From: Candidatus Thorarchaeota archaeon
Lineage (GTDB): Archaea; Asgardarchaeota; Thorarchaeia; Thorarchaeales; Thorarchaeaceae
Direction: 5' to 3'
NCBI GenBank assembly: GCA_018238375.1
Contig: JABCTJ010000129.1
Span: 1 to 50,540, forward strand
Length of the DNA stretch: 50,540 nucleotides
Shown here piece by piece: positions 6,530 through 43,410 of this stretch. How positions within the stretch are numbered: position 1 is the first letter of the stretch; each line of letters begins with the position of its first letter. The position numbers were made by a program, and so were the translations under genes. Under the pieces are notes generated by a model. The model was not told the DNA's origin and ran no database searches. It worked only from the letters and a program-made list of their open reading frames with translations.

Positions 6530-7162
6530 ATGCTAGTTCGGATTACTTTGGCAGAGAAGGAGAATCGAACGAATCTGGAGTGGCACCTAAAGCAGATATC
6601 GCGCGCGGTCAATCTAGACAAGTTTATGCTCATGGAGTATTTGGGTCCGGTAGTTGATGGCTGCAGAGCGGCATTTAAGGTAAGCATTGAGCGTGCTCGC
6701 GATATTCATAAGTTGCCTGAGTCGGAATTCGAAAAACACATGAATGCAACCGAGCATTCGTTCAGAGATCTGACGATTTGCTTCAAGGCTACGGATGCTG
6801 ATGAACTCCTGTCTATTGTTTTTAATAATGGAGTAACCAGCATTCATGACGAATGCGTAGAACCAGATGTTGTTGTTTCGGGAACTATGAACCATCTGAC
6901 AGACATAATGAACATTGACTCGCGCATTTCTCCCACAGATGTCATCGGCGTATCAGTTCAAATAACTGGCGTTGAATCTGCTGACGTGGTTGAGGCCTTA
7001 GGATTTCTCTGCTTTCCTTCTCTTCTTAAGATGGCTCGATCGGGAGTTGACCCGTCCTCTCTGCTATCTGAGGATGCCGACTCGATAATAATTGCAGCAG
7101 CATCCAATCTTGTAACACAAATGGTACGCAAGTGGGTTGATGCTCAGCTGGAACAACATTGA
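6530..7162 (+). CDS. hypothetical protein (C-terminal half possibly SCP2-like)
   Basis: 210-aa ORF with protein-like composition. There is only a weak resemblance of VVVSGTMNHLTDIMN...VQITG...ALGFL to SCP2 lipid-binding domains. Confidence 0.5.
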   Translation: MLVRITLAEKENRTNLEWHLKQISRAVNLDKFMLMEYLGPVVDGCRAAFKVSIERARDIHKLPESEFEKHMNATEHSFRDLTICFKATDADELLSIVFNNGVTSIHDECVEPDVVVSGTMNHLTDIMNIDSRISPTDVIGVSVQITGVESADVVEALGFLCFPSLLKMARSGVDPSSLLSEDADSIIIAAASNLVTQMVRKWVDAQLEQH

Positions 7163-7184
7163 CCTCTACACTGCTATCCGATTT

Positions 7185-8333
7185 CTAGATGCCATGATAT
7201 GGGAAGATCAGCTCCTCGATACGTCTGAATACTCTATCAAGGTCCAGAGTGACCTGTTCCTGAGAGAAGTATTGCTGGATTACTTGCTGCTCATCCCTCA
7301 TTGTTTCCGGGAATTCATTGTATCCCCGCATTTTACATTCTTGCTTGAATTCGTCTGGCAAGTATCTTGGCACATCCTCGTCTAACATGATGGCTAGAAA
7401 AAGAGTCCAGAGTCTCGCGACATTCACAGGATGATATCCGCCCCCACCTACAGCTAGCCAACCGACATCGCAGATGTCTTCGGATAACTTCTTGATACGT
7501 TTGAGGCTGGTTTCGTATCCTTGACTAGTGTAGGCTAAGTGTGCCAATGGATCGAGGAAATGTCCGTCTACTCCAAGTTGAGTGACAAGTAGATTGGGTT
7601 GAAACGATTCAAAGAGCGGCATAACGACCTCTTCGACAATCCGTATCAGTTCAGGGGTTCCTGTTCCCGGAAGCACCGGCACGTTTACAGAATGGCCAAT
7701 GCCTTCTCCACCGCCAATTTCATACACGAAGCCTGTACCTGGGAATAGAGTCTTGCCAGTCTGATGTGCGGAGATTGTAAGAACGTCCTTCGACCTGTAG
7801 AACGCATTCTGAACCCCATCACCATGATGAGCGTCAAAAATATCGAGGTAGAGCACTCTACTTGGCTTCTTCTTTTGAAGGTACATCACTGCTGTCACAA
7901 CGTCATTGAAGATGCAGAAGCCGGAAGCCTCACTTCTATGAGCGTGATGAAGTCCGCCTGAAATGCAGAACGCATTGGATGCTCCTTTTACTATCTCCTT
8001 CATTCCATCGAGGGTTGCTCCGACATATCTTGCCCCCGCATCGTAGATTCTGGGAAATGTAGGATTATCCGCGATCCCTAAACCGTATTTTGCATTGATG
8101 CGGTCGCTTTCGCCACACTCCACAACAGCATCTATAAAATCAGGAGTATGAAACATCTCCAGGTCCGCTCTCTCTGCGACTGTAGGCTCGATTAATTGTA
8201 CCTTATCCATGAGTCCGAGCTGTTCTGATAGCAGATGAGTCAGCTTCAACCTGTCGGGCGTTAGTGGGTGTTCTTTCTTGAACTTGTATTGAAGCAAGGC
8301 ATCTGAGTACGGGTAGACAAGCTTTCCTTTCAT
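7185..8333 (-). CDS. histone deacetylase-family enzyme (AcuC/acetoin utilization-type lysine or polyamine deacetylase)
   Basis: 382 aa. Motifs seen are SGGLHHAHRSEASGFCIFND, DIFDAHHGDGVQNAF and the GGGGY glycine loop, all classical zinc-HDAC motifs. Confidence 0.9.
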   Translation of the reverse strand: MKGKLVYPYSDALLQYKFKKEHPLTPDRLKLTHLLSEQLGLMDKVQLIEPTVAERADLEMFHTPDFIDAVVECGESDRINAKYGLGIADNPTFPRIYDAGARYVGATLDGMKEIVKGASNAFCISGGLHHAHRSEASGFCIFNDVVTAVMYLQKKKPSRVLYLDIFDAHHGDGVQNAFYRSKDVLTISAHQTGKTLFPGTGFVYEIGGGEGIGHSVNVPVLPGTGTPELIRIVEEVVMPLFESFQPNLLVTQLGVDGHFLDPLAHLAYTSQGYETSLKRIKKLSEDICDVGWLAVGGGGYHPVNVARLWTLFLAIMLDEDVPRYLPDEFKQECKMRGYNEFPETMRDEQQVIQQYFSQEQVTLDLDRVFRRIEELIFPYHGI

Positions 8334-8386
8334 CGTGGTTTCCTACTAAGAGGGGTTTCGCCTATTTCTTACTAAGTAGGTGTGCT

Positions 8387-11685: not shown

Positions 11686-12750
11686 CTATGGTTTTATCTG
11701 GGCAAGTATCTCTCTGAATCTGGGTTCAGCAAGGAGCGCGTGTTGTAGTTTACAGAGCAGCTTTGTGGCCTCAGCGTAGATGACTTGTTTAGCTGGGTCG
11801 GTGGCCGTTTCTGCATCATGGAGGGTTTCCTCACACCGCTGATTGAACCGCTTTATGATTCGCTTCTCCAAATCAGGTCCACCCCAATCAAAACCATCGA
11901 ATATCATCTGTGCCTCTGAAACCTTGTCTGCAGGTTTGGGAGTTGCACCACTGAGGACACCTTCGAGTCCGGAGAAGTACTTTGATACTGCTCTCTCAAC
12001 GCGCTCGGTTTCCGAAGGGTCCAAGTAGATCTCAGCAGGTCGTTTCTTGGACAGATCTTGCAGAAGTCTTGCACCTGGAGCTTCAGTCAATAGAGTCTTC
12101 ACTATCTGAGATGCAATCTTTGCAGGTATTTCAATGATCTCGCTGGCGTAAGGTGAGTTTGATTTGTACTTGTGAAGGTCTCTTACAACCTCTAGCCAGA
12201 AAGTAGGCAATAGCACGTGGCATCGCTTGGAATACTGTTTAATTAGCCGTTGAGTTTTTCCTATCAAACCCCACTCGTCGTCCTCGACCTGCACCTTTCT
12301 GAAAGGTTCTGAAGGCGCTGGAGCTGTGCCCTCAACCAAGGGGACAACATTGGATGTTCCTGTAAAAGGAGTTGAACCCCCAGCAGACCTAGTACTGTCT
12401 TCAAGGAGCGATAATATCTCTTGAGTTGGACTTCCGCGGACCTCAGCTTTCTTTGCGATAACAGAGAGCTTCGGAAGGAGGCTCTCTATCTGAGAGAGTC
12501 TTTTCACTATCAAGCCCATGATGTTTGCGGTGGAAGAGGGTATGCCTTCTGAAGTGGTAGCATCCTCCATCCATTTCCGGGTTCTCTTTAACCCTTGAGT
12601 TAGTGAGTCCACCCTGTCCGGGTCTATGCTACCTTCAATCTGGGAACTCAACAGGAAGTGAATCAGTGTGGAATTCAGTGTGGCAATTAGGAGAAGCCTA
12701 TCAACCAATTCATCCATCGGAAACGGTTCGCTCAATAGGTCACCATCCAC
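11686..12750 (-). CDS. hypothetical alpha-helical protein, third gene of the FtsZ/tubulin-like operon
   Basis: 354-aa ORF. Its GTG start (12750-12748) directly abuts the TAA stop (12753-12751) of the upstream GTPase gene. It has two helical regions separated by a Ser/Thr/Pro/Gly-rich linker (about aa 120-160), no TM segment, and no family that I recognise. Confidence 0.7.
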   Translation of the reverse strand: MDGDLLSEPFPMDELVDRLLLIATLNSTLIHFLLSSQIEGSIDPDRVDSLTQGLKRTRKWMEDATTSEGIPSSTANIMGLIVKRLSQIESLLPKLSVIAKKAEVRGSPTQEILSLLEDSTRSAGGSTPFTGTSNVVPLVEGTAPAPSEPFRKVQVEDDEWGLIGKTQRLIKQYSKRCHVLLPTFWLEVVRDLHKYKSNSPYASEIIEIPAKIASQIVKTLLTEAPGARLLQDLSKKRPAEIYLDPSETERVERAVSKYFSGLEGVLSGATPKPADKVSEAQMIFDGFDWGGPDLEKRIIKRFNQRCEETLHDAETATDPAKQVIYAEATKLLCKLQHALLAEPRFREILAQIKP

Positions 12751-14145
12751 TTACTCGATTTGCGTGGCACTGTCTCCAGGAGTCATGTAGTAGCTGAACA
12801 GTTCTCTGAAATCAGCGATTGCACTGACGAGCTCCTTACGAGTCGTACCCTTCGACCTCATGAACCAGCTCTGTTTCAACGGGGATGGTCCACTGTGGAG
12901 ATTTACTAGCTGCGTGGCCTCGTTGATAATTTTAGTGAGTTCAGGTATCTTGGGCAAGCCTAAAAGCAGTAGTAGATCGGTGGGGGGGTCCTCGATGAAA
13001 TGCTGCACATAGCAAGGAGTTATGGCGGCCCCAGGTGCAATGAACTTGTTTAATGCATCCTTGAGATGCATGCCATACTCAGCTTTTGCAACGTGTTTTG
13101 GTCCTGTTAGAACGTAGTAGACACTCTCAGCATTTGGCTCTTCTCCAATGTCGGCATAAGAGCACTCTTTGACAGCATAGTCAATCATTGTCATTAACTG
13201 CTTGGGCATGCTTCCCGCATCAGGAATCAGGCCAATATCCTTGTATAGTGCTGGCACGACAACTGGGTCCAGCTTCCTGGCATAATCCGCAAGGTCCGTA
13301 GTTGGGAACACATCCTTGTTGGCCTCATATACGCCGGGTGAAAGCATTGCTTCAATCACATCGATGGCCAGAGGGTTCACAAGCTCCACGAAGGCCTGCT
13401 CGGTCCTTACATCTAGGTCTGCGGCTTCGTCCAAGGTAGAGGGCACCATCGTTTCTATTTGATTGATGTTGGCGATATCGACGTCCAGTTCCCTCTGAAG
13501 ATAGTCCACAGTATCAGCCTTTCTTGATTGGATAATTCGCTTTAACATTGTACGATTGCTCAGGAGAATAGTAAGGTCTGCTCCTCGCTCTTGTAGTTGC
13601 GCGCGAAGGAGTTTTGAAACCGCCCAGATGGAGTTCAGAGCTTCGCTAGATTGGCCTTCAAATGGAAGAACACCGATCACGTACACGAAGATGCGACGTC
13701 CTTCTTCTTCTTGGAACCTCTGCTTCAGAGCTTCGATGATGGCCGGTGTACCACCACATCCTGTACCCCCGCCAAGACTGGTGAATATGCAGAATCCTGA
13801 TACGCCTTCAAACCCGAGGTCCGCTAGCTGATTAAAGATGATGTCCTTTGACTCCAATACTGAGTTGTATCCATCCATGAATCTTCCACCGACGCCTATC
13901 TCACTAGCGCCGTATAGGAGCGTGTTCTCCTTTGGTACACCATACTTCGAGCGGACCTTGGTGATGTCTGCTCTGTCAGTATTTATGAGCATGTAGCCTC
14001 TGACTCTTGACGGTAGCCGCTTGTCTCGACTAGTCTTCAGATATGATCCAACAATATTAGAACCACATTCGCCAATTCCAATAGCGAATACTTCTGCGGC
14101 TCGTGTTTCATCAGATTCAGCGTCCTTTCCTGTAAATCTCTGCAT
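12751..14145 (-). CDS. divergent FtsZ/tubulin-superfamily GTPase
   Basis: 464 aa. Features seen are a G-box GIGECGSN (14056-14079), LINTD, the tubulin signature GGGTGCGG (13750-13773, verified by back-translation), VLPFEGQ (FtsZ T5-like), LLSNRTML (H7-region N) and a later acidic TTDLADY. AGGAG lies about 9 nt upstream of ATG 14145. Confidence 0.8.
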   Translation of the reverse strand: MQRFTGKDAESDETRAAEVFAIGIGECGSNIVGSYLKTSRDKRLPSRVRGYMLINTDRADITKVRSKYGVPKENTLLYGASEIGVGGRFMDGYNSVLESKDIIFNQLADLGFEGVSGFCIFTSLGGGTGCGGTPAIIEALKQRFQEEEGRRIFVYVIGVLPFEGQSSEALNSIWAVSKLLRAQLQERGADLTILLSNRTMLKRIIQSRKADTVDYLQRELDVDIANINQIETMVPSTLDEAADLDVRTEQAFVELVNPLAIDVIEAMLSPGVYEANKDVFPTTDLADYARKLDPVVVPALYKDIGLIPDAGSMPKQLMTMIDYAVKECSYADIGEEPNAESVYYVLTGPKHVAKAEYGMHLKDALNKFIAPGAAITPCYVQHFIEDPPTDLLLLLGLPKIPELTKIINEATQLVNLHSGPSPLKQSWFMRSKGTTRKELVSAIADFRELFSYYMTPGDSATQIE

Positions 14146-14163
14146 GGATTCTATCTCCTGAAG

Positions 14164-16860
14164 CTATCCTCGTTTCTCAACCATTGTTTCGGCGATTTCT
14201 TTCAACGCCCAGCCGAGATAGGAACTGATGTCCTCTCTGCTGTAGGTTTCTCTAATCTTCCGAGTTGCGTCATCAATGAATTTGTTGCGGTCATCTAGAG
14301 AAGCCGCTGGACTAAAGCCAGCCATAAACATCTTCATTGATTTATGCCATTCATTCATCTTGCTTGCTTTCTCAACCCAGCCCTCTCTTAACTCAGCTAC
14401 CTTGTTGAAATGTCTAATTGCGTCGTCAAGGGTTTCAGATTCTTCCAGCTTCTTTTCTGTTTCTTGAAGTTCTTTTAGAGGGTAAATTTTCTTACTGAAA
14501 TCATCGGGATGGCTTTCATACACACGTGTTATGGTCGAGTGATATTTGCTCCTTTTCTTGAGATTCTCCACGTGATTCTCTCCATCCTTCTGAGATATCC
14601 CCTTGACAATGGAGAGCATCTCATCCTGGATTGTTGCAAGAGTGAGACACACGGTAAGTGCCTCATTCACGTGTTGAGACTCCGCAGAGAGCTGTTCCGG
14701 AACCTTCTCCAGCAGCGTTTTCAGACGTTCCACGGTTTCTGGCATCCCTTGGTCTTCAAACAACGTGACCGCACTCTTGAGTTGCTCGTATGACTCGTTG
14801 GCTCTGTCCTTTATTTTGTCTTGGACTTTTGTTGAGGTTGTGAGAGCCCTAATCCTATCGAAGTACTCAGCGGCATCCTCTAGCTCCTGAGGGGGCTTGG
14901 AGATGATCTTGTCAAGAACTTTCAGTTCCTTAGTCAGGTCAACGCCAATCGCTTCAGCGCGCCCGAAGGATGTCTTTAGCTCCACCGTTTCCGTATTGAG
15001 GGCTTCAATAACCTTCGCGGTGATCTTGTGTTCATAGAGCTCGACCATTTTACGTGCAATGGCTGGGAGACTAAACACGGTGTCAGCCGCAATGCTCACA
15101 GAGTTGAGTTCACCAATCGCTTCTTGTGCTTCCTTTGGGATGTCCACTCCTGCGCCCATCAGCTTGGCTGCCGCAAGTCTAATCTTTACACCCAAGCGAT
15201 AGCGTAGGTTCTCCAAGGCGTCCTTTGCCTTAGCTAGAATGGCTTCCTTTGTGCTTCGCATCTCAGACCGGATCTCGCCAAATTCCTCCATAACACCAAT
15301 GCGATTCTTGGCTTCGTCGAGCTCGCTGATAATAGGCATGAAAATCTCTGCGTAAGCAGGTTTGATTGTTTGCAAGTCTGATATTATCGCATCTATCTCT
15401 TGGCCTGCAGCCTCTCGGAATGTGCCAACTCCACTCTCGACAGCTTTTCTAAGGTTCGCCAAGGATTCAAGGAGAAATACGGTTCCACCTTCCAGTTCCT
15501 CGACCTTTGGAGCTTTCTTACTCAGTTGCGCGTAGTCTAGGACCTTATCTGCTGATGTTGCTAGTTCGTTGAACCTGGTGATATACGACCGGATCTGTTC
15601 TGTGATGTTCTTGTTATATTCGTCCACCATTGATTTGGCTTTGAGATGAATCTTTATCATACCGTCAATCTCGGCCCGCTTCAACTCTTTCTTGGAGTCT
15701 GCAACAAACTTACGAACCGAAATGATGTCCTTGATTCCAGCATCATCAGGGAAGTCCGTTGCTTTTTCAACGTCATTGAGGGCATCAACAACTCTGTCAT
15801 TAATGGATATCTTGACCTGTCCGCTCCATTCCACCATTTTCTGATACGCGGAAAGAAGGCTCGCGATATTATCAGCTTCAGGAACGACATCAGGGGGTAG
15901 AGGAATAACATCTGCAGTAGTAGGAATCCCTCCTTCAGCAATTTTAGCTGTGACCTCATGCTTCATGTTTATGATTCTGTCACGAAGCATATTCGACATC
16001 TTCAACCTAGCGGCATCAAGTTGATTCTCAAGGCTGATGAGCGAGGTCAAGTTGTTTGCCTTGGATGAATCCCTGGCAATCACCCGAAGCTGCTTTGTGA
16101 AATCCATCGGAAGGTCCAATCCAAGACGTGAGGCAGTTTCAACTGAGGTCTGCAGTGACTCGACTTCTGTGATGAGTGAAACACTCAGCATCTTACTGAC
16201 CTCATCCTTGCGTCCATCAAGATAGGTTTCATCCGACTTCAATTTCTCCATAATGGGGATTAGGTCAGTCATGGGTAGGTTGGCGACTTCCTCGATGGAG
16301 GACGTTGTGGACACCTCTCCTCTGTCAATGGAAATGTGTCTTTCATAGGTCTCAAGAGTCCTCTTGTTTTCGTCAAGTTTTCCCTTGACTTCTCGCACGA
16401 AATCCTGATGAAGAGTAATATAATGCTGTGAGAACGTTTTCCCGTACTTGTACAACGTTTCGAAGTCATCCAAGTCTCCTGCACCTATTGACGGAAAACT
16501 CAATGAAGCCAGCGTCTTTGCTTCGGCGGGTTTGAAATACTGAATGCGTGGCAGCATTGCAGTGAAGTCTCTCTGCTCCTTTCGAAAGATCTCTGCAAAG
16601 TCTCGGACCACTCTCATGAAATCCTCTTTGATATTCTTAGACGCCTTTTCAATCTGGCCGGCAATCTTCCTCTTCTTCAGAACGCTCAACCCTGAGGTAT
16701 CAGAGAGGTCCTTGTCTAAGCCTGTGAGCTTCGCATACACATCATATAACTGACGCACCTGTCGGTCGGTCTGTTGTTCTGTGGATGGGTTGATTGATGC
16801 TAACATTCCTTTCATTTCAGAGAGTCTATCAAGTTCGCGCCGCCATACGTGACTATCCAT
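14164..16860 (-). CDS. 898-aa coiled-coil/all-helical protein, first gene of the FtsZ/tubulin-like operon
   Basis: Long uninterrupted ORF rich in K/E/L/I with heptad-like character and no TM segment or nucleotide-binding motif. GGAGG (complement of 16868-16872) lies 7 nt upstream of ATG 16860. A short motif G-[LV]-D-[LI]-[PT] recurs. Confidence 0.8.
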   Translation of the reverse strand: MDSHVWRRELDRLSEMKGMLASINPSTEQQTDRQVRQLYDVYAKLTGLDKDLSDTSGLSVLKKRKIAGQIEKASKNIKEDFMRVVRDFAEIFRKEQRDFTAMLPRIQYFKPAEAKTLASLSFPSIGAGDLDDFETLYKYGKTFSQHYITLHQDFVREVKGKLDENKRTLETYERHISIDRGEVSTTSSIEEVANLPMTDLIPIMEKLKSDETYLDGRKDEVSKMLSVSLITEVESLQTSVETASRLGLDLPMDFTKQLRVIARDSSKANNLTSLISLENQLDAARLKMSNMLRDRIINMKHEVTAKIAEGGIPTTADVIPLPPDVVPEADNIASLLSAYQKMVEWSGQVKISINDRVVDALNDVEKATDFPDDAGIKDIISVRKFVADSKKELKRAEIDGMIKIHLKAKSMVDEYNKNITEQIRSYITRFNELATSADKVLDYAQLSKKAPKVEELEGGTVFLLESLANLRKAVESGVGTFREAAGQEIDAIISDLQTIKPAYAEIFMPIISELDEAKNRIGVMEEFGEIRSEMRSTKEAILAKAKDALENLRYRLGVKIRLAAAKLMGAGVDIPKEAQEAIGELNSVSIAADTVFSLPAIARKMVELYEHKITAKVIEALNTETVELKTSFGRAEAIGVDLTKELKVLDKIISKPPQELEDAAEYFDRIRALTTSTKVQDKIKDRANESYEQLKSAVTLFEDQGMPETVERLKTLLEKVPEQLSAESQHVNEALTVCLTLATIQDEMLSIVKGISQKDGENHVENLKKRSKYHSTITRVYESHPDDFSKKIYPLKELQETEKKLEESETLDDAIRHFNKVAELREGWVEKASKMNEWHKSMKMFMAGFSPAASLDDRNKFIDDATRKIRETYSREDISSYLGWALKEIAETMVEKRG

Positions 16861-16903
16861 AAGCCTTCCTCCAGATGAAGCGTAGCTTCAAATCGGTTTG
16901 TCG

Positions 16904-16911
16904 TTTTAAAA
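16904..16911 (-). promoter_or_regulatory. putative TATA-like element (TTTTAAAA) upstream of the coiled-coil/FtsZ-like operon
   Basis: Palindromic A/T box 44-51 nt upstream of ATG 16860, in the 210-bp divergent intergenic region shared with the WD40 gene. Confidence 0.3.
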
Positions 16912-17070
16912 CTGTTCTGCGCTCAGGCCAATTGCCCCTATCTTGTTTATACACTAATCGTGTCTGTAGGTTTCTCAAAATCCGTTCGGCATTAACAGCC
17001 AAGCTAGAAACTGCCTTAAGTCATGCTACGAGAGCTAGAATTCAGCTCAAATACGAGAGAGGCCAATAAA

Positions 17071-18987
17071 ATGTCCGGTCAACAGGACAATTCTGCGCCA
17101 GCATCATCTTCGATAACTCACGAGGAAGTGACAGTGCTCGAGGTAGACGCAGTTGACATCAGTTATGATGACCGGTTTCTCTACACTGCATGCAAGGACA
17201 AGTACGTGAGAGTGTGGTCTAAGGGTGATTGGCAGCTTGTTGCAGAACTAGGTGAAACCAGCTCTGAGCCACTAGCTGTACACGTTGACAAAGACCATGT
17301 ATACGCCACTTGTGAACGCCGAGTCTATATGTGGCGAAAGGGAACTTGGGGTATGATTGGCTGGTTCGAGCTCAGCTATCATGCGTTAACCTCTGATCTT
17401 CATGGCGACTGTTTTTACATTGGTACCCGTGAAGGGCGTCTATTGTCAATTAAGAGAGATACTAACGAAACTTCTAGCTGGCCACTTCATAAGTCGGAAA
17501 TAACGATGCTCTGGTCCAATGGCAGCGTAATATGCTCAGGGACCAAGAAGGAATCTCCAGTGGTTTGGACTCCTGACCTTGATACAGCACCAACTGAGCT
17601 CGCCGTGCTTGGAAAAACAGACCACGGTACTGCTGTAACAGGCAACTCCCAGTTTGTCATGGTAGGTCTAGCCTCGGGTGATGTGAAGCTCTGGGATCGT
17701 GTTGGATGGAACCATGTTCGGACGTTGGAATCGCAGACTGATGAGCCCTTGGTTTCAATGTGGGCTAATGATCTTTATCTCGTTACGTCTTCGACTGCAG
17801 GTTTCCTAACCATTTGGGATCTTACGAAAGATGTCCAATTGGGTCAGGTCAGGAAGAATGGGAGCAAGTACGGAATGGCTTCAGTTGACCATGACCTGAT
17901 ATATGTTGCATCCTCAGAAGGACTGGTAGTCATAGGCATTTCCCTTGAAGGGCAAGCACTGGATTTGTGCAATGCTGATAATCGAATCCAAGATGACGAC
18001 CTACTCAAAACATCGCCGTACGATGTGCTAGAGTCCGTGCTGAATCATCAACGCCAAGGCGATAATCTTCTGCAGGAACGACATTTCTCCAAGGCTATGG
18101 AGGAGTATGATACTGCATTACATCTTCTAATCGACAATGTTCACGCTCTTCAAGCAGTTCCTGAGGAACGTGAAAAGCTGACACGGGAAATCATCGACAG
18201 ACGAAGTAAAGCATCACTCCGGTCTAGGATTGAAACGATTCAAACCATCAATAAGGAGATTGAACAAATATCAGATGAGCTTGAGCTTAAGGGACAAACC
18301 TTGAGGGATGAAGCGGAGATTGGCTCTCTTTGGAGTAATGCCGAGTCAGCAATTCGAGAGTCACGTATACTCTCAGAGGACAATGCTGATGACATGCTAA
18401 GCTATCAGCTAACTTACATCACGGATAATTTACAATCTGATCTTGCAGCTGCCAAGGAGAAGCTCGCGAATTATCAGCGCAAGGTGAATCAAGCGGTTGC
18501 TCTTGTTCACGGCATGGAGAATGAGTGGCGCTGGATGGAGCAGCGAAGAACTAGTCTGTCCGAGAGAAAGGGTTTCCTTGATCGAACCATCAAGCAGCTC
18601 GAAAAGCAATTTGCCAACGCAGAGTCGGACAATGAAGTCCAGGAGATTCTCAAGGATGCTCTTGGCAAGCACAAACAACTCCATGAGCAAATAGGCCGCA
18701 TCCTGTCAGCTTCAGACGATGAGCAGGAAACAGTGCTGTCCAGCAGGGAAGACGCTCTGGCAGCAATTCATAGTCTACTTAGAATAATACCGAAGAAACG
18801 TAATGCCATGCTTGCCATCTCCGATCATTCAAAGCGCCAGAAGGAATTAGAGCGACTGACTGCTGCCCTTGAAGAGGCATTGGAATCCGCAAGACATCAC
18901 GGATTGAAAGAAGAAACTAGGTCAATCCAAAATGAAATTGAGAGTGTAGCCGCACTAAACGGGGCTGCACGTACTGAGAACACGTGA
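17071..18987 (+). CDS. WD40 beta-propeller protein with a long C-terminal coiled coil
   Basis: The track ORF starts at 17023; I prefer ATG 17071 (MSGQQDNS). The N-terminal ~300 aa contain repeated WD-like strand endings (YVRVWS, VYMWRK, VKLWD, LTIWDL). The C-terminal ~330 aa are helical and coiled-coil, with one TPR-like stretch (FSKAMEEYDTALHLL). Confidence 0.8.
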   Translation: MSGQQDNSAPASSSITHEEVTVLEVDAVDISYDDRFLYTACKDKYVRVWSKGDWQLVAELGETSSEPLAVHVDKDHVYATCERRVYMWRKGTWGMIGWFELSYHALTSDLHGDCFYIGTREGRLLSIKRDTNETSSWPLHKSEITMLWSNGSVICSGTKKESPVVWTPDLDTAPTELAVLGKTDHGTAVTGNSQFVMVGLASGDVKLWDRVGWNHVRTLESQTDEPLVSMWANDLYLVTSSTAGFLTIWDLTKDVQLGQVRKNGSKYGMASVDHDLIYVASSEGLVVIGISLEGQALDLCNADNRIQDDDLLKTSPYDVLESVLNHQRQGDNLLQERHFSKAMEEYDTALHLLIDNVHALQAVPEEREKLTREIIDRRSKASLRSRIETIQTINKEIEQISDELELKGQTLRDEAEIGSLWSNAESAIRESRILSEDNADDMLSYQLTYITDNLQSDLAAAKEKLANYQRKVNQAVALVHGMENEWRWMEQRRTSLSERKGFLDRTIKQLEKQFANAESDNEVQEILKDALGKHKQLHEQIGRILSASDDEQETVLSSREDALAAIHSLLRIIPKKRNAMLAISDHSKRQKELERLTAALEEALESARHHGLKEETRSIQNEIESVAALNGAARTENT

Positions 18988-19047: not shown

Positions 19048-19677
19048 TCACCCGGCATCAGACTCGATGTCGAAGTCATCGTCGAACCCTAGCATCGCTT
19101 GACGCACGATGTCTATCCAATCCAATGTATCGTCTTCAAGTGTTGGATCTAGCGCAAGAGCATGATCTGCTGCGACAAGTGCGGCCTCAAAATTCTCCAA
19201 GATAAAATAGCATATGGCACAGTTGTGCCACCCCCTTGCTGAGTTAGGCTCCAATGAAAGCGCCTTGCCAAGCGCATCTAACGCGTCTTTCCATTGCTCA
19301 TTAGCCATGAAAGCGGCAGCCAATAGATGCCAGTCACGACCATTTCTAGGCTTGAGACGAAGGCTTTTGTGCAAGGCTTCCACGCCCTCACTACTTTCAT
19401 TGAGAAGTAGATGTAAGAACCCCTTCTCACCCCACGCAATCTGCGAGTTGGGCTCGATACGAATGATGTGGTTCAGGGCCTCAATCGCTTTGTCTGGTCT
19501 CTTCAACTCTAGATTGCAGGCAAAGACGCTCTCCCACATGGGTTTGTTATTGGGATCAACTGTAAGCCCCTGTTCTAATGTGACAATAGCCTGCTGATAC
19601 TGGGCATTCTTAATGAAACAAGCCGCCTGATTAAGAATGCTGCCTGAGCCTTGACATTCTTGATTTGGTTTACTCAA
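19048..19677 (-). CDS. tetratricopeptide-repeat (TPR) protein
   Basis: 209 aa with 5-6 tandem 34-aa units showing the A/L/P pattern (AIVTLEQGLTVDPNN, AIEALNHIIRIEPNS, ALHKSLRLKPRN, ALGKALSLEPNS, AADHALALDPT). Confidence 0.85.
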   Translation of the reverse strand: MSKPNQECQGSGSILNQAACFIKNAQYQQAIVTLEQGLTVDPNNKPMWESVFACNLELKRPDKAIEALNHIIRIEPNSQIAWGEKGFLHLLLNESSEGVEALHKSLRLKPRNGRDWHLLAAAFMANEQWKDALDALGKALSLEPNSARGWHNCAICYFILENFEAALVAADHALALDPTLEDDTLDWIDIVRQAMLGFDDDFDIESDAG

Positions 19678-19811: not shown

Positions 19812-21290
19812 CTAATCGTCCCAGCCGGTCATCTCGATTCGCACGATGTTCCCAAGAATCGAAATCTCATCCGGAACTATCAGTTTCAGCGGCCAGTCGG
19901 GTTCTTGCAAGAGCGCCCCGTTCACCCAACCAGCAACAATAATGCTTGAGTTGTACGCGAGCTGCTCTGCCGTAAAGGTGACATTGGCACCATCTCCGCT
20001 GTAGAGTGTAACATTGTAATTCTTGGAGAGAAGCGTTGCATTGAACAGATAGTGATCATCATCCCCGCCATCCATCGAGGCAATGATGGTCCAGAGCGGC
20101 ACACCAGCATGAACGCTTTCTCCAAGAGCAAGTTCTACGTGATGATGCGGACACGAAGCAAGTGAGTAGTATATGTCATGTGTCATATTCCATTCCTCTA
20201 CGCCTCGGAGTTCAAGCGACCAAGGTTCGATTTCATCAATGAGTGTTATGTTTACAACGTCCTTCGCCCAGTAATGACCGTCCGAAAGAAAACCATTTTC
20301 GCTAAGGGTCACAATCCTAAGGGGTCCGCCATGGTCCAGCGGTTCTCCTCCCTCGTGGTAGGCGAGAATCACCGTGAAGTTTCCCCTTCCAAGAGGGTCA
20401 CCTGTTTCTGCATCGTAGGCTTTGAGTGCGCCTTCCACTTCCGTTCTATTGAAGTATGTCGTGTAAAAGTCAGATGCAATTGCTTCGATAGAATACTCAA
20501 CTGGCAGTGTGCCGGTTATTTCTAGCAGATGCTGTATGGTCACGCCAGTGTAGGTGTACGGTCCAACGATGGTACCCGTAGTCTTCTTGTAGCCTCCTTC
20601 TCCTGTGACCGATGGGAGCGCAAGAAGCTCACTCATGGAATAGCCGGTCGTTTCATCGCCTACAGTGATACTGAGCACACTGGGCTCAACCTCTGTTTCT
20701 TCAGGCTCGACGATTTCGATTGTGACTACGTTTGACACGCATTGAGGTCCTGCGGCTCCTCCGAAGTATTCAGAAGGTGTTGTTGCATTAGCATCAGCGT
20801 TTGAGTAATATTCGTCTTCTGGGAGAAAGATAATTCTGAGTCCCAGCTCCCATTCTGGCGCTGTAGTCCCGTTGTACGAGTATGCCAGAATCATATCTCC
20901 TTGGAGCTCATGTATGCTCAATGAAGGGTATACTTTCTCGTATGGAAAGGTGACGCTGTAACCATCTGAGGCATTGACAACGATTAGGTCTGTACTCTCC
21001 ATACCGCCGGCCAAGTCGATGAGATCTGAAACATTGACTCCCTTGTAGGTTCCATTGCCGCGAGGGTTGCCGTAGGAGTTCTCGTAGGCCCCATAAGCCT
21101 CAACTGACTGCATGGATAGCATTTGAGAGATTGCGATTGTCTGTCGTGTACCATCCTTATTGATAACATCAATTGATGGACCTGCGGAGGGCTGCTGCAG
21201 AAGCATAATCGCCCCTATTGAAACCCCTGCAAGAACTAAAACCCCAACAAGGACTGCTATGAGTTTCCCCTGACTGCCAATTGTGACCAT
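19812..21290 (-). CDS. membrane-anchored extracytoplasmic protein with three tandem SUOX/YedY-like (molybdopterin-oxidoreductase-fold) domains
   Basis: 492 aa with an N-terminal signal anchor (LIAVLVGVLVLAGVSIGAIMLL). A module recurs three times: YKGVNVSDLIDLAGG...ASDGYSVTFP...ILAYSYNG...GLRIIF; YTGVTIQHLLEITG...ASDFYTTYF...ILAYHEGGEPL...GPLRIV; GVPLWTIIASMDGG...VAGWVNGALL...WPLKLIVP. The domain identity is inferred by eye. Confidence 0.6.
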   Translation of the reverse strand: MVTIGSQGKLIAVLVGVLVLAGVSIGAIMLLQQPSAGPSIDVINKDGTRQTIAISQMLSMQSVEAYGAYENSYGNPRGNGTYKGVNVSDLIDLAGGMESTDLIVVNASDGYSVTFPYEKVYPSLSIHELQGDMILAYSYNGTTAPEWELGLRIIFLPEDEYYSNADANATTPSEYFGGAAGPQCVSNVVTIEIVEPEETEVEPSVLSITVGDETTGYSMSELLALPSVTGEGGYKKTTGTIVGPYTYTGVTIQHLLEITGTLPVEYSIEAIASDFYTTYFNRTEVEGALKAYDAETGDPLGRGNFTVILAYHEGGEPLDHGGPLRIVTLSENGFLSDGHYWAKDVVNITLIDEIEPWSLELRGVEEWNMTHDIYYSLASCPHHHVELALGESVHAGVPLWTIIASMDGGDDDHYLFNATLLSKNYNVTLYSGDGANVTFTAEQLAYNSSIIVAGWVNGALLQEPDWPLKLIVPDEISILGNIVRIEMTGWDD

Positions 21291-36210: not shown

Positions 36211-37101
36211 CTAGATTTCAGATATATCGTTGGGAAATTCATCAATATTCAACGGACTGACCAAGAGCCCTTCAGATGTGACTTTCAAGACCACACGCCG
36301 ACCTAAGTTCGCCAGTCTACGAACAGTTTCCGGGAGTACCATCCGCCCTTTCGCATCAATCTCGGTTATGTCACCGTACAGAGTGTGGCGCTGCCCCTCA
36401 ATGAGCCCATCTCTGATGTGAAGAATCCTGTCGGCGTATGATGACACTCTTGGATTATGAGTCACGTTTACAATGGTCGTGTCGAACTCACGGTTGCTCA
36501 TCTTTAGTGCGTTCATGACCATCTCGGTGGTTTCGGTGTCAAGCTCGCCGGTTACCTCGTCAGCTAGGAGAAGCTCAGGCTTATTGGCCAGAGCCACGCA
36601 TATCGCGACTCTTTGATTCTCGCCACCGGACATCTGATGGGGTTTGTGATTCATCCTGTGCTGCATTTCGAAGGTTGTGAGAAGCATTCTAGCTCTCTCG
36701 TCTGCGGCTCCCTTGGGTGCTCCAGCTAACCTCATGGGGAGCTTAACATTCTTCAATGCGTTCAAGCCTGGCACCAAATTCCCTGTCTGCCAGACGAATC
36801 CGACCTTCTGCCTGCGATACATCATAGATCGCTTGTCGTCGAGAAGCGTGAGGCTATGTCCGTCGAAGAGTATTTGTCCTGCGGTAGGCTTGTCAAGGGC
36901 ACCTATCATTTTCAGGAGCGTGGACTTCCCGGAACCGCTTGGGCCTACAATGGACAGGAATTCTCCTCTCTTGACTTCAAAGTCCATGCCACGAAGAGCA
37001 ATGACTTCTTTTATTCCTCGTTTGTAAACCTTCATCAGGTCTCGCACGACGACTTTGTTCTCCATCGCAATTTGTTCTAGGTCTTCTGTCATAATGTTCA
37101 C
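36211..37101 (-). CDS. ABC transporter ATP-binding protein (MacB/LolD-type) with a C-terminal AbrB/SpoVT-like domain
   Basis: Walker A GPSGSGKST, Q-loop, signature MSGGENQRV, Walker B LLLADEVTGELD and H-loop VTHN are present. About 50 extra C-terminal residues (EIDAKGRMVLPETVRRLANLGRRVVLKVTSEGLLVSP) resemble the swapped-hairpin AbrB fold. Its start overlaps the upstream permease stop by 4 nt. Confidence 0.9.
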   Translation of the reverse strand: MNIMTEDLEQIAMENKVVVRDLMKVYKRGIKEVIALRGMDFEVKRGEFLSIVGPSGSGKSTLLKMIGALDKPTAGQILFDGHSLTLLDDKRSMMYRRQKVGFVWQTGNLVPGLNALKNVKLPMRLAGAPKGAADERARMLLTTFEMQHRMNHKPHQMSGGENQRVAICVALANKPELLLADEVTGELDTETTEMVMNALKMSNREFDTTIVNVTHNPRVSSYADRILHIRDGLIEGQRHTLYGDITEIDAKGRMVLPETVRRLANLGRRVVLKVTSEGLLVSPLNIDEFPNDISEI

Positions 37102-42685: not shown

Positions 42686-42690
42686 TCCTC

Positions 42691-43410
42691 CTATACGACG
42701 CCCTCTACCTGTCCGTCTCGCATCTTGTAGACCTTATCCATCTGCTTGCCTACATCCGGATCATGGGTGACCACAATCAGAGTGCCACCCTCGCCTTTCG
42801 TTAGGTTTATCAGAATCTTCATGATGTCTTCGCCCGTTTGCTGGTCTAAATCTCCCGTTGGTTCATCCGCGAGCACAACAACGGAGCTCGCAGCACCTTC
42901 AGGCTTGGCAAGGGCACGGGCAATTGCCACACGTTGCTGTTCTCCTCCTGAGAGTTCATCCGGTCTGTGTTCAGCTCTCTCTGTGAGACCTACGAGTCCG
43001 ATAAGATGGTCTACTCGTTCCTTTCTAGCAGTTTCCTCTACTCCTGCGATGAGCAGTGGCAGCTCAACATTCTCATACGCTGAAAGTACGGGCAACAGGT
43101 TGAAGAATTGAAATACGAAGCTTATCTTGTTTCGTCGAACTGTGGTGAGTTCTTTTTCGTTCATGCTAGTTATATTGACGCCATCAATTGTAACCGTCCC
43201 CGCGGTAGGCTTGTCGAGAGCGCCGATAAGATTTAACAATGTTGTCTTGCCTGATCCTGATGGCCCCATGATTCCGATGGCCTCACCCTGCTTGACCTGC
43301 AGGCTTACGCCGCGAAGGGCTGGAACAGTGAGCTCACCCATCGTGTAAATCCGTGATACCGAATCGAGGTCTACTATGACGTACTTTTCCACAAATTCCC
43401 TCTCCGTCAC
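42691..43410 (-). CDS. ABC transporter ATP-binding protein (MacB/LolD-type)
   Basis: Walker A GPSGSGKTT, signature LSGGEQQRVAIARAL, Walker B VVLADEPTGDLD and H-loop VTHD are present. Confidence 0.92.
   Translation of the reverse strand: MTEREFVEKYVIVDLDSVSRIYTMGELTVPALRGVSLQVKQGEAIGIMGPSGSGKTTLLNLIGALDKPTAGTVTIDGVNITSMNEKELTTVRRNKISFVFQFFNLLPVLSAYENVELPLLIAGVEETARKERVDHLIGLVGLTERAEHRPDELSGGEQQRVAIARALAKPEGAASSVVVLADEPTGDLDQQTGEDIMKILINLTKGEGGTLIVVTHDPDVGKQMDKVYKMRDGQVEGVV

What the first reader, a model, noticed from the sequence alone, without database searches (positions are those of the whole stretch)
11686..16860. Candidate undescribed cytoskeletal module: coiled-coil giant + divergent FtsZ/tubulin GTPase + helical partner in one tightly coupled operon
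Three co-directional genes have no room for internal promoters. The 898-aa gene stops at 14164, and the GTPase ATG is at 14145 with AGGAG in the 18-nt gap. The GTPase TAA (12753-12751) directly abuts the GTG start of the 354-aa gene (12750). The middle protein clearly carries tubulin/FtsZ nucleotide-binding motifs, but it is longer than canonical FtsZ and atypical for it. The flanking partners have no TM segments or motifs I recognise. They do not resemble known FtsZ partners (SepF, FtsA, ZapA), TubR/TubY of TubZ systems, or the membrane and ESCRT-III-like neighbours that I recall Makarova and Koonin reporting for the FtsZl-1/FtsZl-2 families. A filament-forming GTPase encoded with a very long coiled-coil protein suggests a dedicated scaffold or membrane-remodelling machine. 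The divergently transcribed WD40/coiled-coil gene and the TPR gene next door would fit an extended scaffold locus.
Basis: partly seen in the sequence, partly recalled or inferred. Interest (0 to 1): 0.85.

Follow-up and report, generated by a model that had tools for sequence, protein, structure and literature searches.

The report
Asgard tubulin-like three-gene operon

Summary
Three co-directional genes (898, 464 and 349-354 aa) sit 15-18 nt apart on the minus strand of a Thorarchaeota chromosome segment.

The middle protein is a two-domain tubulin/FtsZ-superfamily GTPase. Its nucleotide-binding loops are intact and its T7 catalytic aspartates are invariant. It is not FtsZ, not CetZ proper (no CetZ_C domain) and not a bona fide tubulin. 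It belongs to "Asg.Tub", a clade named in 2023 from four sequences and never studied functionally.

What is new is the module. In every locus with enough flank, about 80 in all, the same three genes occur in the same order with median gaps of 13 and 16 nt. These loci cover Thor-, Hermod-, Sif-, Borr-, Heimdall- and Baldrarchaeia and "Asgardarchaeia". The three gene trees are congruent (r = 0.93-0.98). No other neighbouring gene is shared across lineages.

Both partners are soluble and all-alpha. They have no Pfam, NCBIfam, PDB-sequence or Foldseek match.

The family is absent from the viral and plasmid collections. The neighbouring WD40 and TPR genes are only Thor-level collinearity.

Most likely this is a GTP-dependent filament system with two dedicated accessory proteins, inherited from the Asgard ancestor. 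Polymerisation, the interactions and the cellular role are all inferred, not shown.

The parts
16904..16911 (-). TATA-like A/T box (TTTTAAAA), 44-51 nt upstream of the first gene's ATG; putative archaeal promoter of the operon
   Evidence: Read from the sequence. An A/T box lies 43-58 nt upstream in the other Thor loci examined, though not at a fixed register. Promoter function is inferred.
16868..16872 (-). GGAGG Shine-Dalgarno of the 898-aa gene
   Evidence: GGAGG at -12 to -8 is the only strongly conserved upstream block in 49 Thor loci.
14164..16860 (-). Gene 1: 898-aa (101 kDa, pI 5.5) soluble all-alpha partner ('big'), with no known family
   Evidence: ORF. More than 150 homologs, none with a meaningful Pfam hit. 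Orthologs sit directly upstream of the GTPase in Heimdall, Hermod-like, Borr, 'Asgardarchaeia' and Baldr. AF2 mean pLDDT 86.7, pTM 0.39, about 33 helices. No PDB sequence hit and no Foldseek hit, best E = 0.17. No internal repeats. The C-terminal ~120 aa are the best conserved.
14155..14159 (-). AGGAG Shine-Dalgarno in the 18-nt gap before the GTPase gene
   Evidence: The median gap between the big gene's stop and the GTPase start is 13 nt in 77 loci.
12751..14145 (-). Gene 2: 464-aa tubulin/FtsZ-superfamily GTPase of the 'Asg.Tub' clade
   Evidence: PF00091 at E = 4e-19. 119 of 464 positions are invariant across 5 Asgard lineage groups. The family is sharply isolated among 1.84 billion representatives. 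Identified with published Asg.Tub through OLS26264.1 = P0113.
13540..14094 (-). N-terminal GTPase domain (residues 18-202): T1 GIGECGSN, T4 SLGGGTGCGGTP, T5 LPF, T6 N197
   Evidence: hhalign against the CetZ N-domain gives probability 99.9%, E = 3e-34.
13267..13305 (-). T7 (synergy) loop PTTDLADYARKLD (residues 281-293), with invariant D284 and D287
   Evidence: Both aspartates are invariant in 96 family members and across 5 lineage groups. The motif resembles the FtsZ NxDFAD catalytic loop (from my own knowledge of FtsZ).
12889..13221 (-). C-terminal (activation-type) domain core, residues ~309-419, remotely CetZ_C-like
   Evidence: hhalign of the C-terminal halves only gives probability 91%, E = 1e-6 over 108 columns. 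The negative control gives 0.6%. No Pfam CetZ_C, FtsZ_C or Tubulin_C hit.
12740..12744 (-). GGTGA Shine-Dalgarno-like motif, 4 nt upstream of the probable TTG start of gene 3
11686..12735 (-). Gene 3: 349-aa partner ('small'; the longest ORF starts at GTG 12750 and gives 354 aa). N-terminal helical segment, disordered linker, conserved globular all-alpha C-terminal domain.
   Evidence: ORF. Start-codon analysis. More than 190 homologs with no Pfam hit. Orthologs lie directly downstream of the GTPase in all lineages. AF2: helices at residues 12-118, pLDDT < 50 across most of residues 106-144 (helices resume at 162), and pLDDT mostly 88-97 for residues 150-354. No PDB or BFVD fold match. Conserved motifs are DxWG, LLPxFW, LLxEAPxARLLQ and F(D/N)WGxxxxEKR.

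Best explanation
This is a single transcription unit, inherited vertically from early in Asgard evolution. It encodes a self-contained tubulin-superfamily filament system.

The 464-aa Asg.Tub GTPase binds GTP through intact T1-T6 loops. Its invariant T7 aspartates (D284, D287) would complete the active site of the next subunit. It therefore most likely forms GTP-dependent, head-to-tail protofilaments, as FtsZ, CetZ and tubulin do.

The two co-translated partners are dedicated accessory proteins made in amounts matched to the GTPase. The ~100-kDa multi-helix rod would act as a scaffold, spacer or cross-linker along or between filaments. The two-domain ~39-kDa protein would use its conserved globular C-terminal domain to bind the GTPase or the rod, and its helical N-terminus and flexible linker to oligomerise or tether.

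The same genomes keep canonical FtsZ, and the operon carries no DNA-binding or membrane protein. The system most likely organises cell shape or the cell interior, a CetZ-like job, rather than driving division or DNA segregation.

Shown: gene structure, motifs, conservation, synteny, co-evolution, predicted folds and the absence of known homologs.
Inferred: polymerisation, physical interaction among the three proteins, stoichiometry and cellular role.
For: Operon:
- In the window the gaps are 18 nt and 15 nt (0 nt if the GTG start is used), each with a Shine-Dalgarno motif.
- Across loci the median gaps are 13 nt (n = 77) and 16 nt (n = 81), and stop and start codons overlap in Baldr, Borr and 'Asgardarchaeia'.
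- Upstream of gene 1 there is one conserved GGAGG plus a TATA-like box.

Module:
- The order big, GTPase, small holds in every locus with enough flank (L001-L086). These cover Thor, Hermod, Sif, Borr, Heimdall, Baldr and 'Asgardarchaeia'.
- Unbiased clustering finds only these three families shared by all five lineage groups.
- The three distance matrices correlate at r = 0.95, 0.93 and 0.98, with Mantel p <= 5e-4, and the NJ trees are congruent.

GTPase competence:
- PF00091 at E = 4e-19.
- T1, T4 and T6 motifs and T7 residues D284 and D287 are invariant.
- The C-terminal domain is homologous to the CetZ C-domain (91%).
- 119 of 464 positions are invariant across classes, while the partners keep only 16-29% identity. 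That pattern fits a polymer whose surfaces are all constrained.

Not division or partition:
- Canonical FtsZ proteins occur in the same genomes as Asg.Tub. An example is OLS21975.1 alongside OLS26264.1 in Heimdall LC-3.
- The context is chromosomal and housekeeping.
- No relatives were found in 2.9 million viral contigs or 72,556 plasmids.
- There are no iterons.
Against: - There is no experimental or structural evidence that this protein polymerises, and I could not model the GTPase or any complex.
- Conserved operon membership shows functional linkage, not physical binding.
- The partners' folds gave no functional clue.
- The 898-aa model has a low pTM (0.39), so its overall shape is uncertain.
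- A cell-shape role is argued only by exclusion and by analogy with CetZ.
- Lineage names are submitters' MAG labels, and some are plainly wrong.
Confidence: 0.58

Rival explanations
1. A membrane-remodelling or membrane-anchored scaffold. The filament plus rod would deform or support membranes, for example the long protrusions of Asgard cells.
For: Tubulin-superfamily paralogs have been repurposed for membrane remodelling in other lineages (discussed in PMC10936438). An Arf-family GTPase gene lies directly upstream of the triad in one 'Asgardarchaeia' locus and nearby in one Heimdall locus.
Against: None of the three proteins has a TM segment. No ESCRT, SepF, lipid-binding or membrane-protein gene is conserved next to the triad. 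Small-GTPase neighbours occur in only 3 distinct loci of about 80. Amphipathic membrane-targeting helices were not specifically tested.
Confidence: 0.15
2. An accessory cell-division system: a third FtsZ-like protein that works with or modulates the FtsZ1/FtsZ2 ring, with the two partners acting as lineage-specific Z-ring-associated proteins.
For: The protein belongs to the FtsZ/tubulin superfamily and has an FtsZ-like T7 motif, TTDLAD. Asgard division is uncharacterised (PMC12993045).
Against: It scores far below the FtsZ model (31.6 against 295 bits). Its nearest characterised relatives are CetZs, which the literature reports as not needed for division (PMC12583498 citing Duggin 2015). No linkage to ftsZ, sepF or PRC-barrel genes appears in any locus.
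Confidence: 0.12
3. A non-filamentous GTPase complex. The tubulin-fold protein would act as a GTP-regulated switch or dimer, for instance within an assembly or chaperone complex with the two helical proteins, and would not form a cytoskeletal polymer.
For: Both partners are of unknown function. Nothing here demonstrates polymerisation. There is a variable ~45-residue insert at residues ~205-248, between the two domains.
Against: Both T7 acidic residues are strictly conserved. In this superfamily their known role is to activate GTP hydrolysis in the neighbouring subunit of a polymer (established knowledge). The extreme sequence conservation is also typical of polymer-forming proteins.
Confidence: 0.1
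4. A TubZRC- or PhuZ-like DNA-segregation cassette of a plasmid, virus or integrated element.
For: Three-gene tubulin-like operons with novel partners are typical of TubZ systems (from my own knowledge).
Against: No relatives were found in IMG/VR viral contigs or PLSDB plasmids. The chromosomal housekeeping context is conserved. The gene trees follow Asgard classes. There are no centromere-like repeats. Neither partner has a DNA-binding domain or hit.
Confidence: 0.03

Closest known systems
'Asg.Tub' / CetZ-like Asgard group (Santana-Molina et al. 2023, PMC9871819)
   Same: It is the same protein family. Their four members include OLS26264.1 (= P0113, 51% identical to the window protein) and Thor AB-25 (= locus L038, which carries the full triad). 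Their tree also places the clade on a long branch near Halo.Tub and an Altiarchaeota sequence, outside canonical CetZ.
   Different: They had four sequences and called the group scarce. They described the context only as unknown genes with coiled-coil regions and judged it unrelated across groups. Here the family appears in 128 species-level genomes across most Asgard classes, with a fixed three-gene operon and co-evolving partners.
CetZ (archaeal cell-shape tubulin-like proteins; PDB 4b46, 4b45, 3zid)
   Same: CetZ is the closest characterised relative. PDB profile hits are at E = 2e-11 to 6e-7. hhalign gives 99.9% for the N-domain and 91% for the C-domain. Both are non-FtsZ, non-tubulin archaeal paralogs.
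   Different: The window protein has no Pfam CetZ_C hit. True CetZs score only 59-66 bits on the family profile, against 487-711 bits for members. It is about 70 aa longer and has an insert at residues ~205-248. I know of no conserved two-partner operon for CetZ.
BtubA/BtubB/BtubC operon of Prosthecobacter
   Same: A prokaryotic tubulin-superfamily filament encoded in an operon with a helical-repeat accessory protein that binds and stabilises the polymer (summarised in PMC9871819).
   Different: BtubAB are true tubulins that form heterodimers, and BtubC is a TPR protein. Here there is one GTPase and two partners with no TPR or any other known repeat. BtubABC has a narrow, probably transferred distribution. 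This triad is phylum-wide and vertically inherited.
Crenactin-arcadin cluster of Thermoproteales
   Same: The closest analogue in concept: an archaeal cytomotive filament protein encoded with several lineage-specific accessory proteins of novel sequence (mentioned in PMC10936438).
   Different: It is an actin-fold rather than a tubulin-fold polymer, the partner families are unrelated, and the archaeal lineage differs.
TubZ-TubR-tubC / PhuZ segregation systems
   Same: A tubulin-superfamily GTPase in a small operon with dedicated partners.
   Different: Those systems are carried on plasmids or phages and need a DNA-binding adaptor and a centromere. All three features were tested here and are absent.
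Asgard bona fide tubulins (OdinTubulin, AtubA/B/C)
   Same: Asgard tubulin-superfamily proteins other than FtsZ.
   Different: Similarity is only distant and confined to the N-domain (E ~2e-5), and there is no Tubulin_C domain. Those tubulins are reported in about 1% of Asgard genomes, with no synteny beyond atubAB (bioRxiv 10.64898/2026.02.15.705738). This family is widespread with fixed synteny.

Membership tests
Tubulin/FtsZ superfamily | N-terminal Rossmann-type GTPase domain (Pfam PF00091) | tested here: met
   70 bits against a 33-bit cutoff, E = 4e-19, residues 18-202.
Tubulin/FtsZ superfamily | Glycine-rich T4 signature GGGTG(S/T)G and T1/T6 nucleotide-contact residues | tested here: met
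   SLGGGTGCGGTP, GIGECGSN and N197 are invariant or nearly so in 96 sequences.
Tubulin/FtsZ superfamily | T7 loop with acidic catalytic residue(s) that activate GTP hydrolysis in the adjacent subunit | tested here: met
   In PTTDLADYARKLD, D284 and D287 are invariant across all lineages. Their catalytic function is inferred.
Tubulin/FtsZ superfamily | Second (C-terminal, activation) domain of the tubulin/FtsZ fold | tested here: inconclusive
   hhalign of the C-terminal halves against the CetZ C-domain gives 91%, E = 1e-6, with a 0.6% control. No Pfam C-domain hit. No 3-D model of this protein was made.
Tubulin/FtsZ superfamily | GTP-dependent polymerisation into protofilaments | not testable with these tools
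   Needs biochemistry and EM.
Canonical FtsZ (FtsZ1/FtsZ2) | Reaches the curated score of the FtsZ equivalog model (TIGR00065) and has the FtsZ_C domain | tested here: not met
   31.6 bits against a 295.2-bit cutoff. No PF12327 hit at E <= 1. No FtsZ among the top 60 PDB profile hits.
CetZ | CetZ C-terminal domain (Pfam PF21011) | tested here: not met
   No hit at E <= 1, whereas true CetZs P0380, P0382 and P0385 score 152-184 bits. A CetZ_C HMM I built finds 58 outgroup representatives and none of 5 family members. Only remote profile-profile similarity is seen.
CetZ | Placement inside the supported canonical CetZ node in phylogeny | tested here: not met
   The published trees place Asg.Tub outside it, next to Halo.Tub and Altiarchaeota on branches longer than 1 substitution per site. 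The profile score gap is 487 bits or more for members against 66 bits or less for CetZs. I built no maximum-likelihood tree of my own.
Bona fide tubulin (eukaryotic, Btub, Atub, OdinTubulin, artubulin) | Tubulin_C domain (PF03953) and close sequence similarity over the full length | tested here: not met
   No PF03953 hit. PDB tubulins match only residues ~68-200, at E = 2e-5 or weaker.
FtsZl-1 / FtsZl-2 (Makarova & Koonin 2010; Pfam Tubulin_2) | Tubulin_2 domain (PF13809) above threshold | tested here: not met
   16.8 bits against a 27-bit cutoff, over 84 residues only. The ESCRT-III or membrane neighbours described for those families are absent.
TubZRC-type partition system | Plasmid or phage location, a DNA-binding adaptor (TubR) and centromeric repeats (tubC) | tested here: not met
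   No viral or plasmid relatives, no DNA-binding domain in the partners and no iterons.
Asg.Tub clade (Santana-Molina 2023) | Close, full-length homology to the four founding sequences | tested here: met
   OLS26264.1 = P0113 at E = 1.9e-143, 51% identity and 95% coverage. The Thor SMTZ1-83 and AB-25 members come from genomes whose partner genes or loci are among my hits (P0186, P0297, L038).

The most novel reading that the evidence does not exclude
The triad is an ancestral Asgard cytoskeletal system, a polymer class of its own alongside FtsZ, Lokiactin, ESCRT-III and the rare true tubulins. Its filament has its own architecture. Its two partners found new families of filament-binding proteins with new folds. 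It may underlie the unusual cell architecture of Asgard archaea. Because it is far commoner in Asgard genomes than true tubulins, it could be the main tubulin-superfamily cytoskeleton of the lineage that gave rise to eukaryotes.
Probability: 0.3. Interest if true: 0.85.

Novelty: new variant of a known kind. Interest (0 to 1): 0.66.

Why it matters
[quoted passage not shown] So far attention has gone to Lokiactin, ESCRT, FtsZ1/2 and the rare true tubulins, which are reported in about 1% of Asgard genomes.

This analysis shows that a different tubulin-superfamily protein is widespread. It occurs in 128 species-level genomes from most Asgard classes and is extremely conserved. It is always encoded with the same two uncharacterised partners. 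Until now it was known from four sequences and used mainly as a phylogenetic outgroup.

That turns an orphan clade into a defined three-component system that can be cloned, co-expressed and imaged. It also adds two conserved Asgard protein families with no detectable relatives. If the system forms filaments, it is a new experimental handle on Asgard cell organisation.

Tried and rejected
1. Gamma-tubulin-complex (GCP/Spc97-98) idea for the 898-aa helical protein. No Pfam GCP hit. GCP chains appear in Foldseek only at E = 3-9 with probability 0.02 or less. Rejected.
2. Spectrin-like internal repeats in the 898-aa protein. All-against-all hhalign of seven segments gave a best probability of 13%. 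Not supported.
3. The extended locus with the WD40/helical and TPR genes. They are Thor-only neighbours, like the metabolic genes, and the WD40 protein's helical half is unrelated to the big protein (0.3%). Rejected.
4. Arf/Ras small GTPases as a fourth component. They are near the triad in only 3 distinct loci. Rejected.
5. A fourth conserved gene. Unbiased clustering found none. The only extra cluster is an antisense shadow ORF inside the GTPase gene.
6. Whether the distant sister GTPase P0364 (153 bits) carries the partners. It has no big gene, and its downstream 262-aa gene is not homologous (2%).
7. Fold searches of both partner models against the PDB, and of the small one against BFVD. 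No hit reached E <= 0.001. Whole-chain search of an elongated multi-domain model is insensitive, and I could not search individual domains.
8. Reading Liu et al. 2021 (PMC11165668) for asCOG annotation. The paper is not held.
9. I did not build a maximum-likelihood superfamily tree. No tree software or FtsZ and tubulin reference sequences were at hand. I relied on the published trees plus score gaps and domain tests.

Full report
**1. The observation**

The 18-nt spacer before the second gene contains AGGAG. The TAA of the second gene is immediately followed by GTG. ORFs of 354-898 codons cannot arise by chance in 47% G+C DNA, and each has more than 150 database homologs.

One correction concerns the third gene's start. 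In the nearest relatives the GTG is not conserved (GCG in L007). Codon 6 is TTG in the window and ATG in L006. Homologs are called from MSEPF..., and a GGTGA motif lies 4 nt upstream. The third gene therefore most likely starts at TTG 12735, giving 349 aa and a 15-nt gap. The conclusion that there is no room for internal promoters is unaffected.

Upstream of the first gene lie a GGAGG, conserved in 49 Thor loci, and a TATA-like TTTTAAAA box 44-51 nt before the ATG. No iterons or other meaningful repeats are present.

**2. The organism and context**

Homologs at 82-98% identity carry Thorarchaeota labels. The rest of the window is ordinary chromosome: aspartyl-tRNA synthetase, a type-2 IPP isomerase-like gene, an ADP-forming acetyl-CoA synthetase-like gene, a deacetylase, ABC transporters and a Ras-family GTPase.

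**3. The GTPase**

- **N-terminal domain.** Residues 18-202 match the Pfam Tubulin/FtsZ GTPase domain at E = 4e-19.
- **Motifs.** In a 96-sequence family alignment, the T1 (GIGECGSN), T4 (SLGGGTGCGGTP) and T6 (N197) elements are invariant or nearly so. The T7 loop PTTDLADYARKLD has invariant D284 and D287. In this superfamily the T7 acidic residues activate GTP hydrolysis in the neighbouring subunit of a polymer. That is established knowledge about the superfamily, not something tested here.
- **C-terminal half.** It has no Pfam hit. A profile-profile comparison restricted to the C-terminal halves aligns residues ~309-419 with the CetZ C-terminal domain at 91% probability, E = 1e-6. The negative control gives 0.6%. 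The protein is therefore a two-domain superfamily member.
- **What it is not.** It is not FtsZ: TIGR00065 gives 31.6 bits against a 295-bit cutoff. It is not CetZ proper: there is no PF21011 hit, whereas true CetZs score 150-185 bits. It is not a true tubulin: there is no Tubulin_C hit, and PDB tubulins match only part of the N-domain at E ~1e-5.
- **How isolated the family is.** An exhaustive HMM search of 1.84 billion representative proteins finds two full-length representatives (711 and 487 bits) plus fragments, and one distant sister at 153 bits. Everything else scores 73 bits or less and aligns only to the N-domain.

**4. Prior description**

The supplementary data of Santana-Molina et al. 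2023 define 'Asg.Tub' by four sequences: two from Thor and two from Heimdall. One of them, OLS26264.1, is my hit P0113. The clade was therefore already named. The paper places it on a long branch between CetZ and tubulins, calls it scarce, and says only that its neighbours are unknown genes with coiled-coil regions.

Later work uses a small CetZ-related Asgard clade, probably this one, only as a phylogenetic outgroup. A 2026 Asgard review does not mention it. Six full-text searches found no paper describing the operon or either partner.

**5. The module**

Contexts of distant homologs show the same order of large protein, GTPase, small protein in Heimdall, Hermod-like, 'Asgardarchaeia' and Baldr genomes. 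Homology of the partners is confirmed by BLASTP at E = 4e-25 to 4e-39 and by hhalign at 98.5-99.7%.

A scan of one genome per species (185,579 species) found 128 genomes encoding a relative, and all 80 listed are Asgard. HMMs of the two partners detect them beside the GTPase, on the same strand and in the same order, in every locus with enough flank. Absences occur only at contig ends. Median gaps are 13 and 16 nt, with overlapping stop and start codons in several lineages.

All-against-all clustering of every ORF within about 7 kb finds exactly three families shared by all five lineage groups. Pairwise-distance matrices of the three proteins correlate at r = 0.93-0.98 (Mantel p <= 5e-4), and the NJ trees are congruent and follow Asgard classes.

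Outside Thor, the GTPase keeps 43-61% identity to the window protein, with 119 positions invariant across the 14 sequences compared. The partners keep only 16-29%.

The distant sister P0364 lacks both partners, so the triad is coextensive with the tight clade.

**6. The partners**

Both are acidic and soluble and have no TM segment. Neither they nor their distant orthologs have a Pfam or NCBIfam family.

- **The 898-aa protein.** It is predicted with high local confidence (pLDDT 86.7) but low pTM (0.39). The model shows about 33 helices, most of 10-50 residues and none longer than 50. That describes a multi-helix rod rather than a classical coiled coil. It has no detectable internal repeats. 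Its best-conserved part is the C-terminal ~120 residues, with the motifs WHK(S/A)xR(M/V)F and ETYxRxD(I/V)xxYLxWA. The Heimdall ortholog carries a ~270-residue insertion in the loop at ~310-331.
- **The small protein.** It has three N-terminal helices, a disordered linker and a confident globular all-alpha C-terminal domain (residues 150-354). That domain is the only part conserved across classes.
- **Searches.** Neither model has a significant neighbour in the PDB. The small one also has none in BFVD. PDB sequence profiles find nothing.

**7. What is not part of the module**

The WD40/helical and TPR genes are neighbours in 43 and 41 loci, all of them Thor. The acetyl-CoA synthetase and IPP isomerase genes are similarly linked, in 60 and 51 loci, again almost all Thor. 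This is clade-level collinearity. Small GTPases are sporadic neighbours.

**8. Mechanism**

The best-supported reading is a GTP-dependent filament-forming protein with two dedicated, stoichiometrically co-produced accessory proteins, inherited vertically from early Asgard evolution (confidence 0.58).

Canonical FtsZ coexists in the same genomes. There is no DNA-binding partner, no centromere, and no viral or plasmid occurrence. A role in cell shape or internal organisation is therefore more likely than division or DNA partition.

Polymerisation, physical interaction and cellular role are inferences. The rivals are a membrane-associated scaffold (0.15), a division accessory (0.12), a non-filament GTPase complex (0.10) and a partition cassette (0.03).

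**9. Verdict**

It is less novel than claimed, because the GTPase clade was named in 2023.

The following appear to be unreported:
- the fixed three-gene module;
- its distribution across most Asgard classes;
- the co-evolution of the three genes;
- the two partner families.

I rate it a new variant of a known kind (a tubulin-superfamily filament operon) with interest 0.66.

Noticed in passing
window 17023-18987 (+) and 19048-19677 (-): A 654-aa protein (N-terminal WD40 propeller plus a ~330-aa helical C-terminal half) is transcribed divergently from the triad across a 162-nt intergenic region. A 209-aa TPR protein follows it. Both are conserved neighbours in about 40 Thor loci and in no other Asgard lineage, so co-regulation within Thor is possible but untested.
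   Followed up: partly
window 14164-16860, residues 430-451 of the 898-aa protein: The stretch FNELATSADKVLDYAQLSKKAP is nearly invariant among Thorarchaeota, yet residues ~437-460 fall in the lowest-confidence, non-helical part of the AF2 model (pLDDT 52-65). It is a candidate short linear binding motif. It is not conserved as such in distant lineages.
   Followed up: partly
L001 4480-7989 (Heimdall): The Heimdall ortholog of the big protein is 1169 aa. The extra length is a ~270-residue insertion in the loop that corresponds to window residues ~310-331. That loop also holds two of the few residues invariant across lineages (P320, P323).
   Followed up: no
L005 8001-9323 ('Asgardarchaeia' GCA_052584985): The GTPase gene here is truncated at ...LGLPKLDE (389 aa) and followed by a separate 42-aa ORF. 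This suggests a frameshift, an assembly error or a split gene in this MAG.
   Followed up: no
proteins P0528, P0529: Members of the Baldrarchaeia-type cluster of this family are deposited under the names 'Thermofilum sp. ex4484_82' and 'Candidatus Bathyarchaeota archaeon'. Several Hermod-like and Baldr-like members carry 'Odinarchaeota' labels. These are probably mis-binned or mislabelled MAGs, so lineage names in this report should be read with care.
   Followed up: no
L087 (Logan SRR7811641) 7001-8374; proteins P0364, P0375, P0374: Other orphan tubulin-superfamily groups lie just outside the family. P0364 (457 aa) sits next to DHODH and SMC/ScpA genes and overlaps an unknown 262-aa gene. P0374 is a 610-612-aa type found in 'Bathyarchaeota'/archaeon MAGs. 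None is characterised.
   Followed up: partly
window 46256-47626 (-): A 456-aa protein with a C-terminal Ras/Roc small-GTPase domain (residues 272-450) and a ~270-residue N-terminal extension that has no Pfam match. Small GTPases with added domains are typical of Asgard genomes.
   Followed up: no
window 19812-21290 (-): A 492-aa protein with an N-terminal hydrophobic segment and two stretches matching the molybdopterin-binding oxidoreductase domain (PF00174). It is a conserved neighbour in 21 Thor loci.
   Followed up: no
window 36211-43410 (-): Two tandem ABC systems. Each pairs an ATPase (296 and 239 aa) with a very large FtsX/MacB-type permease (941 and 920 aa).
   Followed up: no
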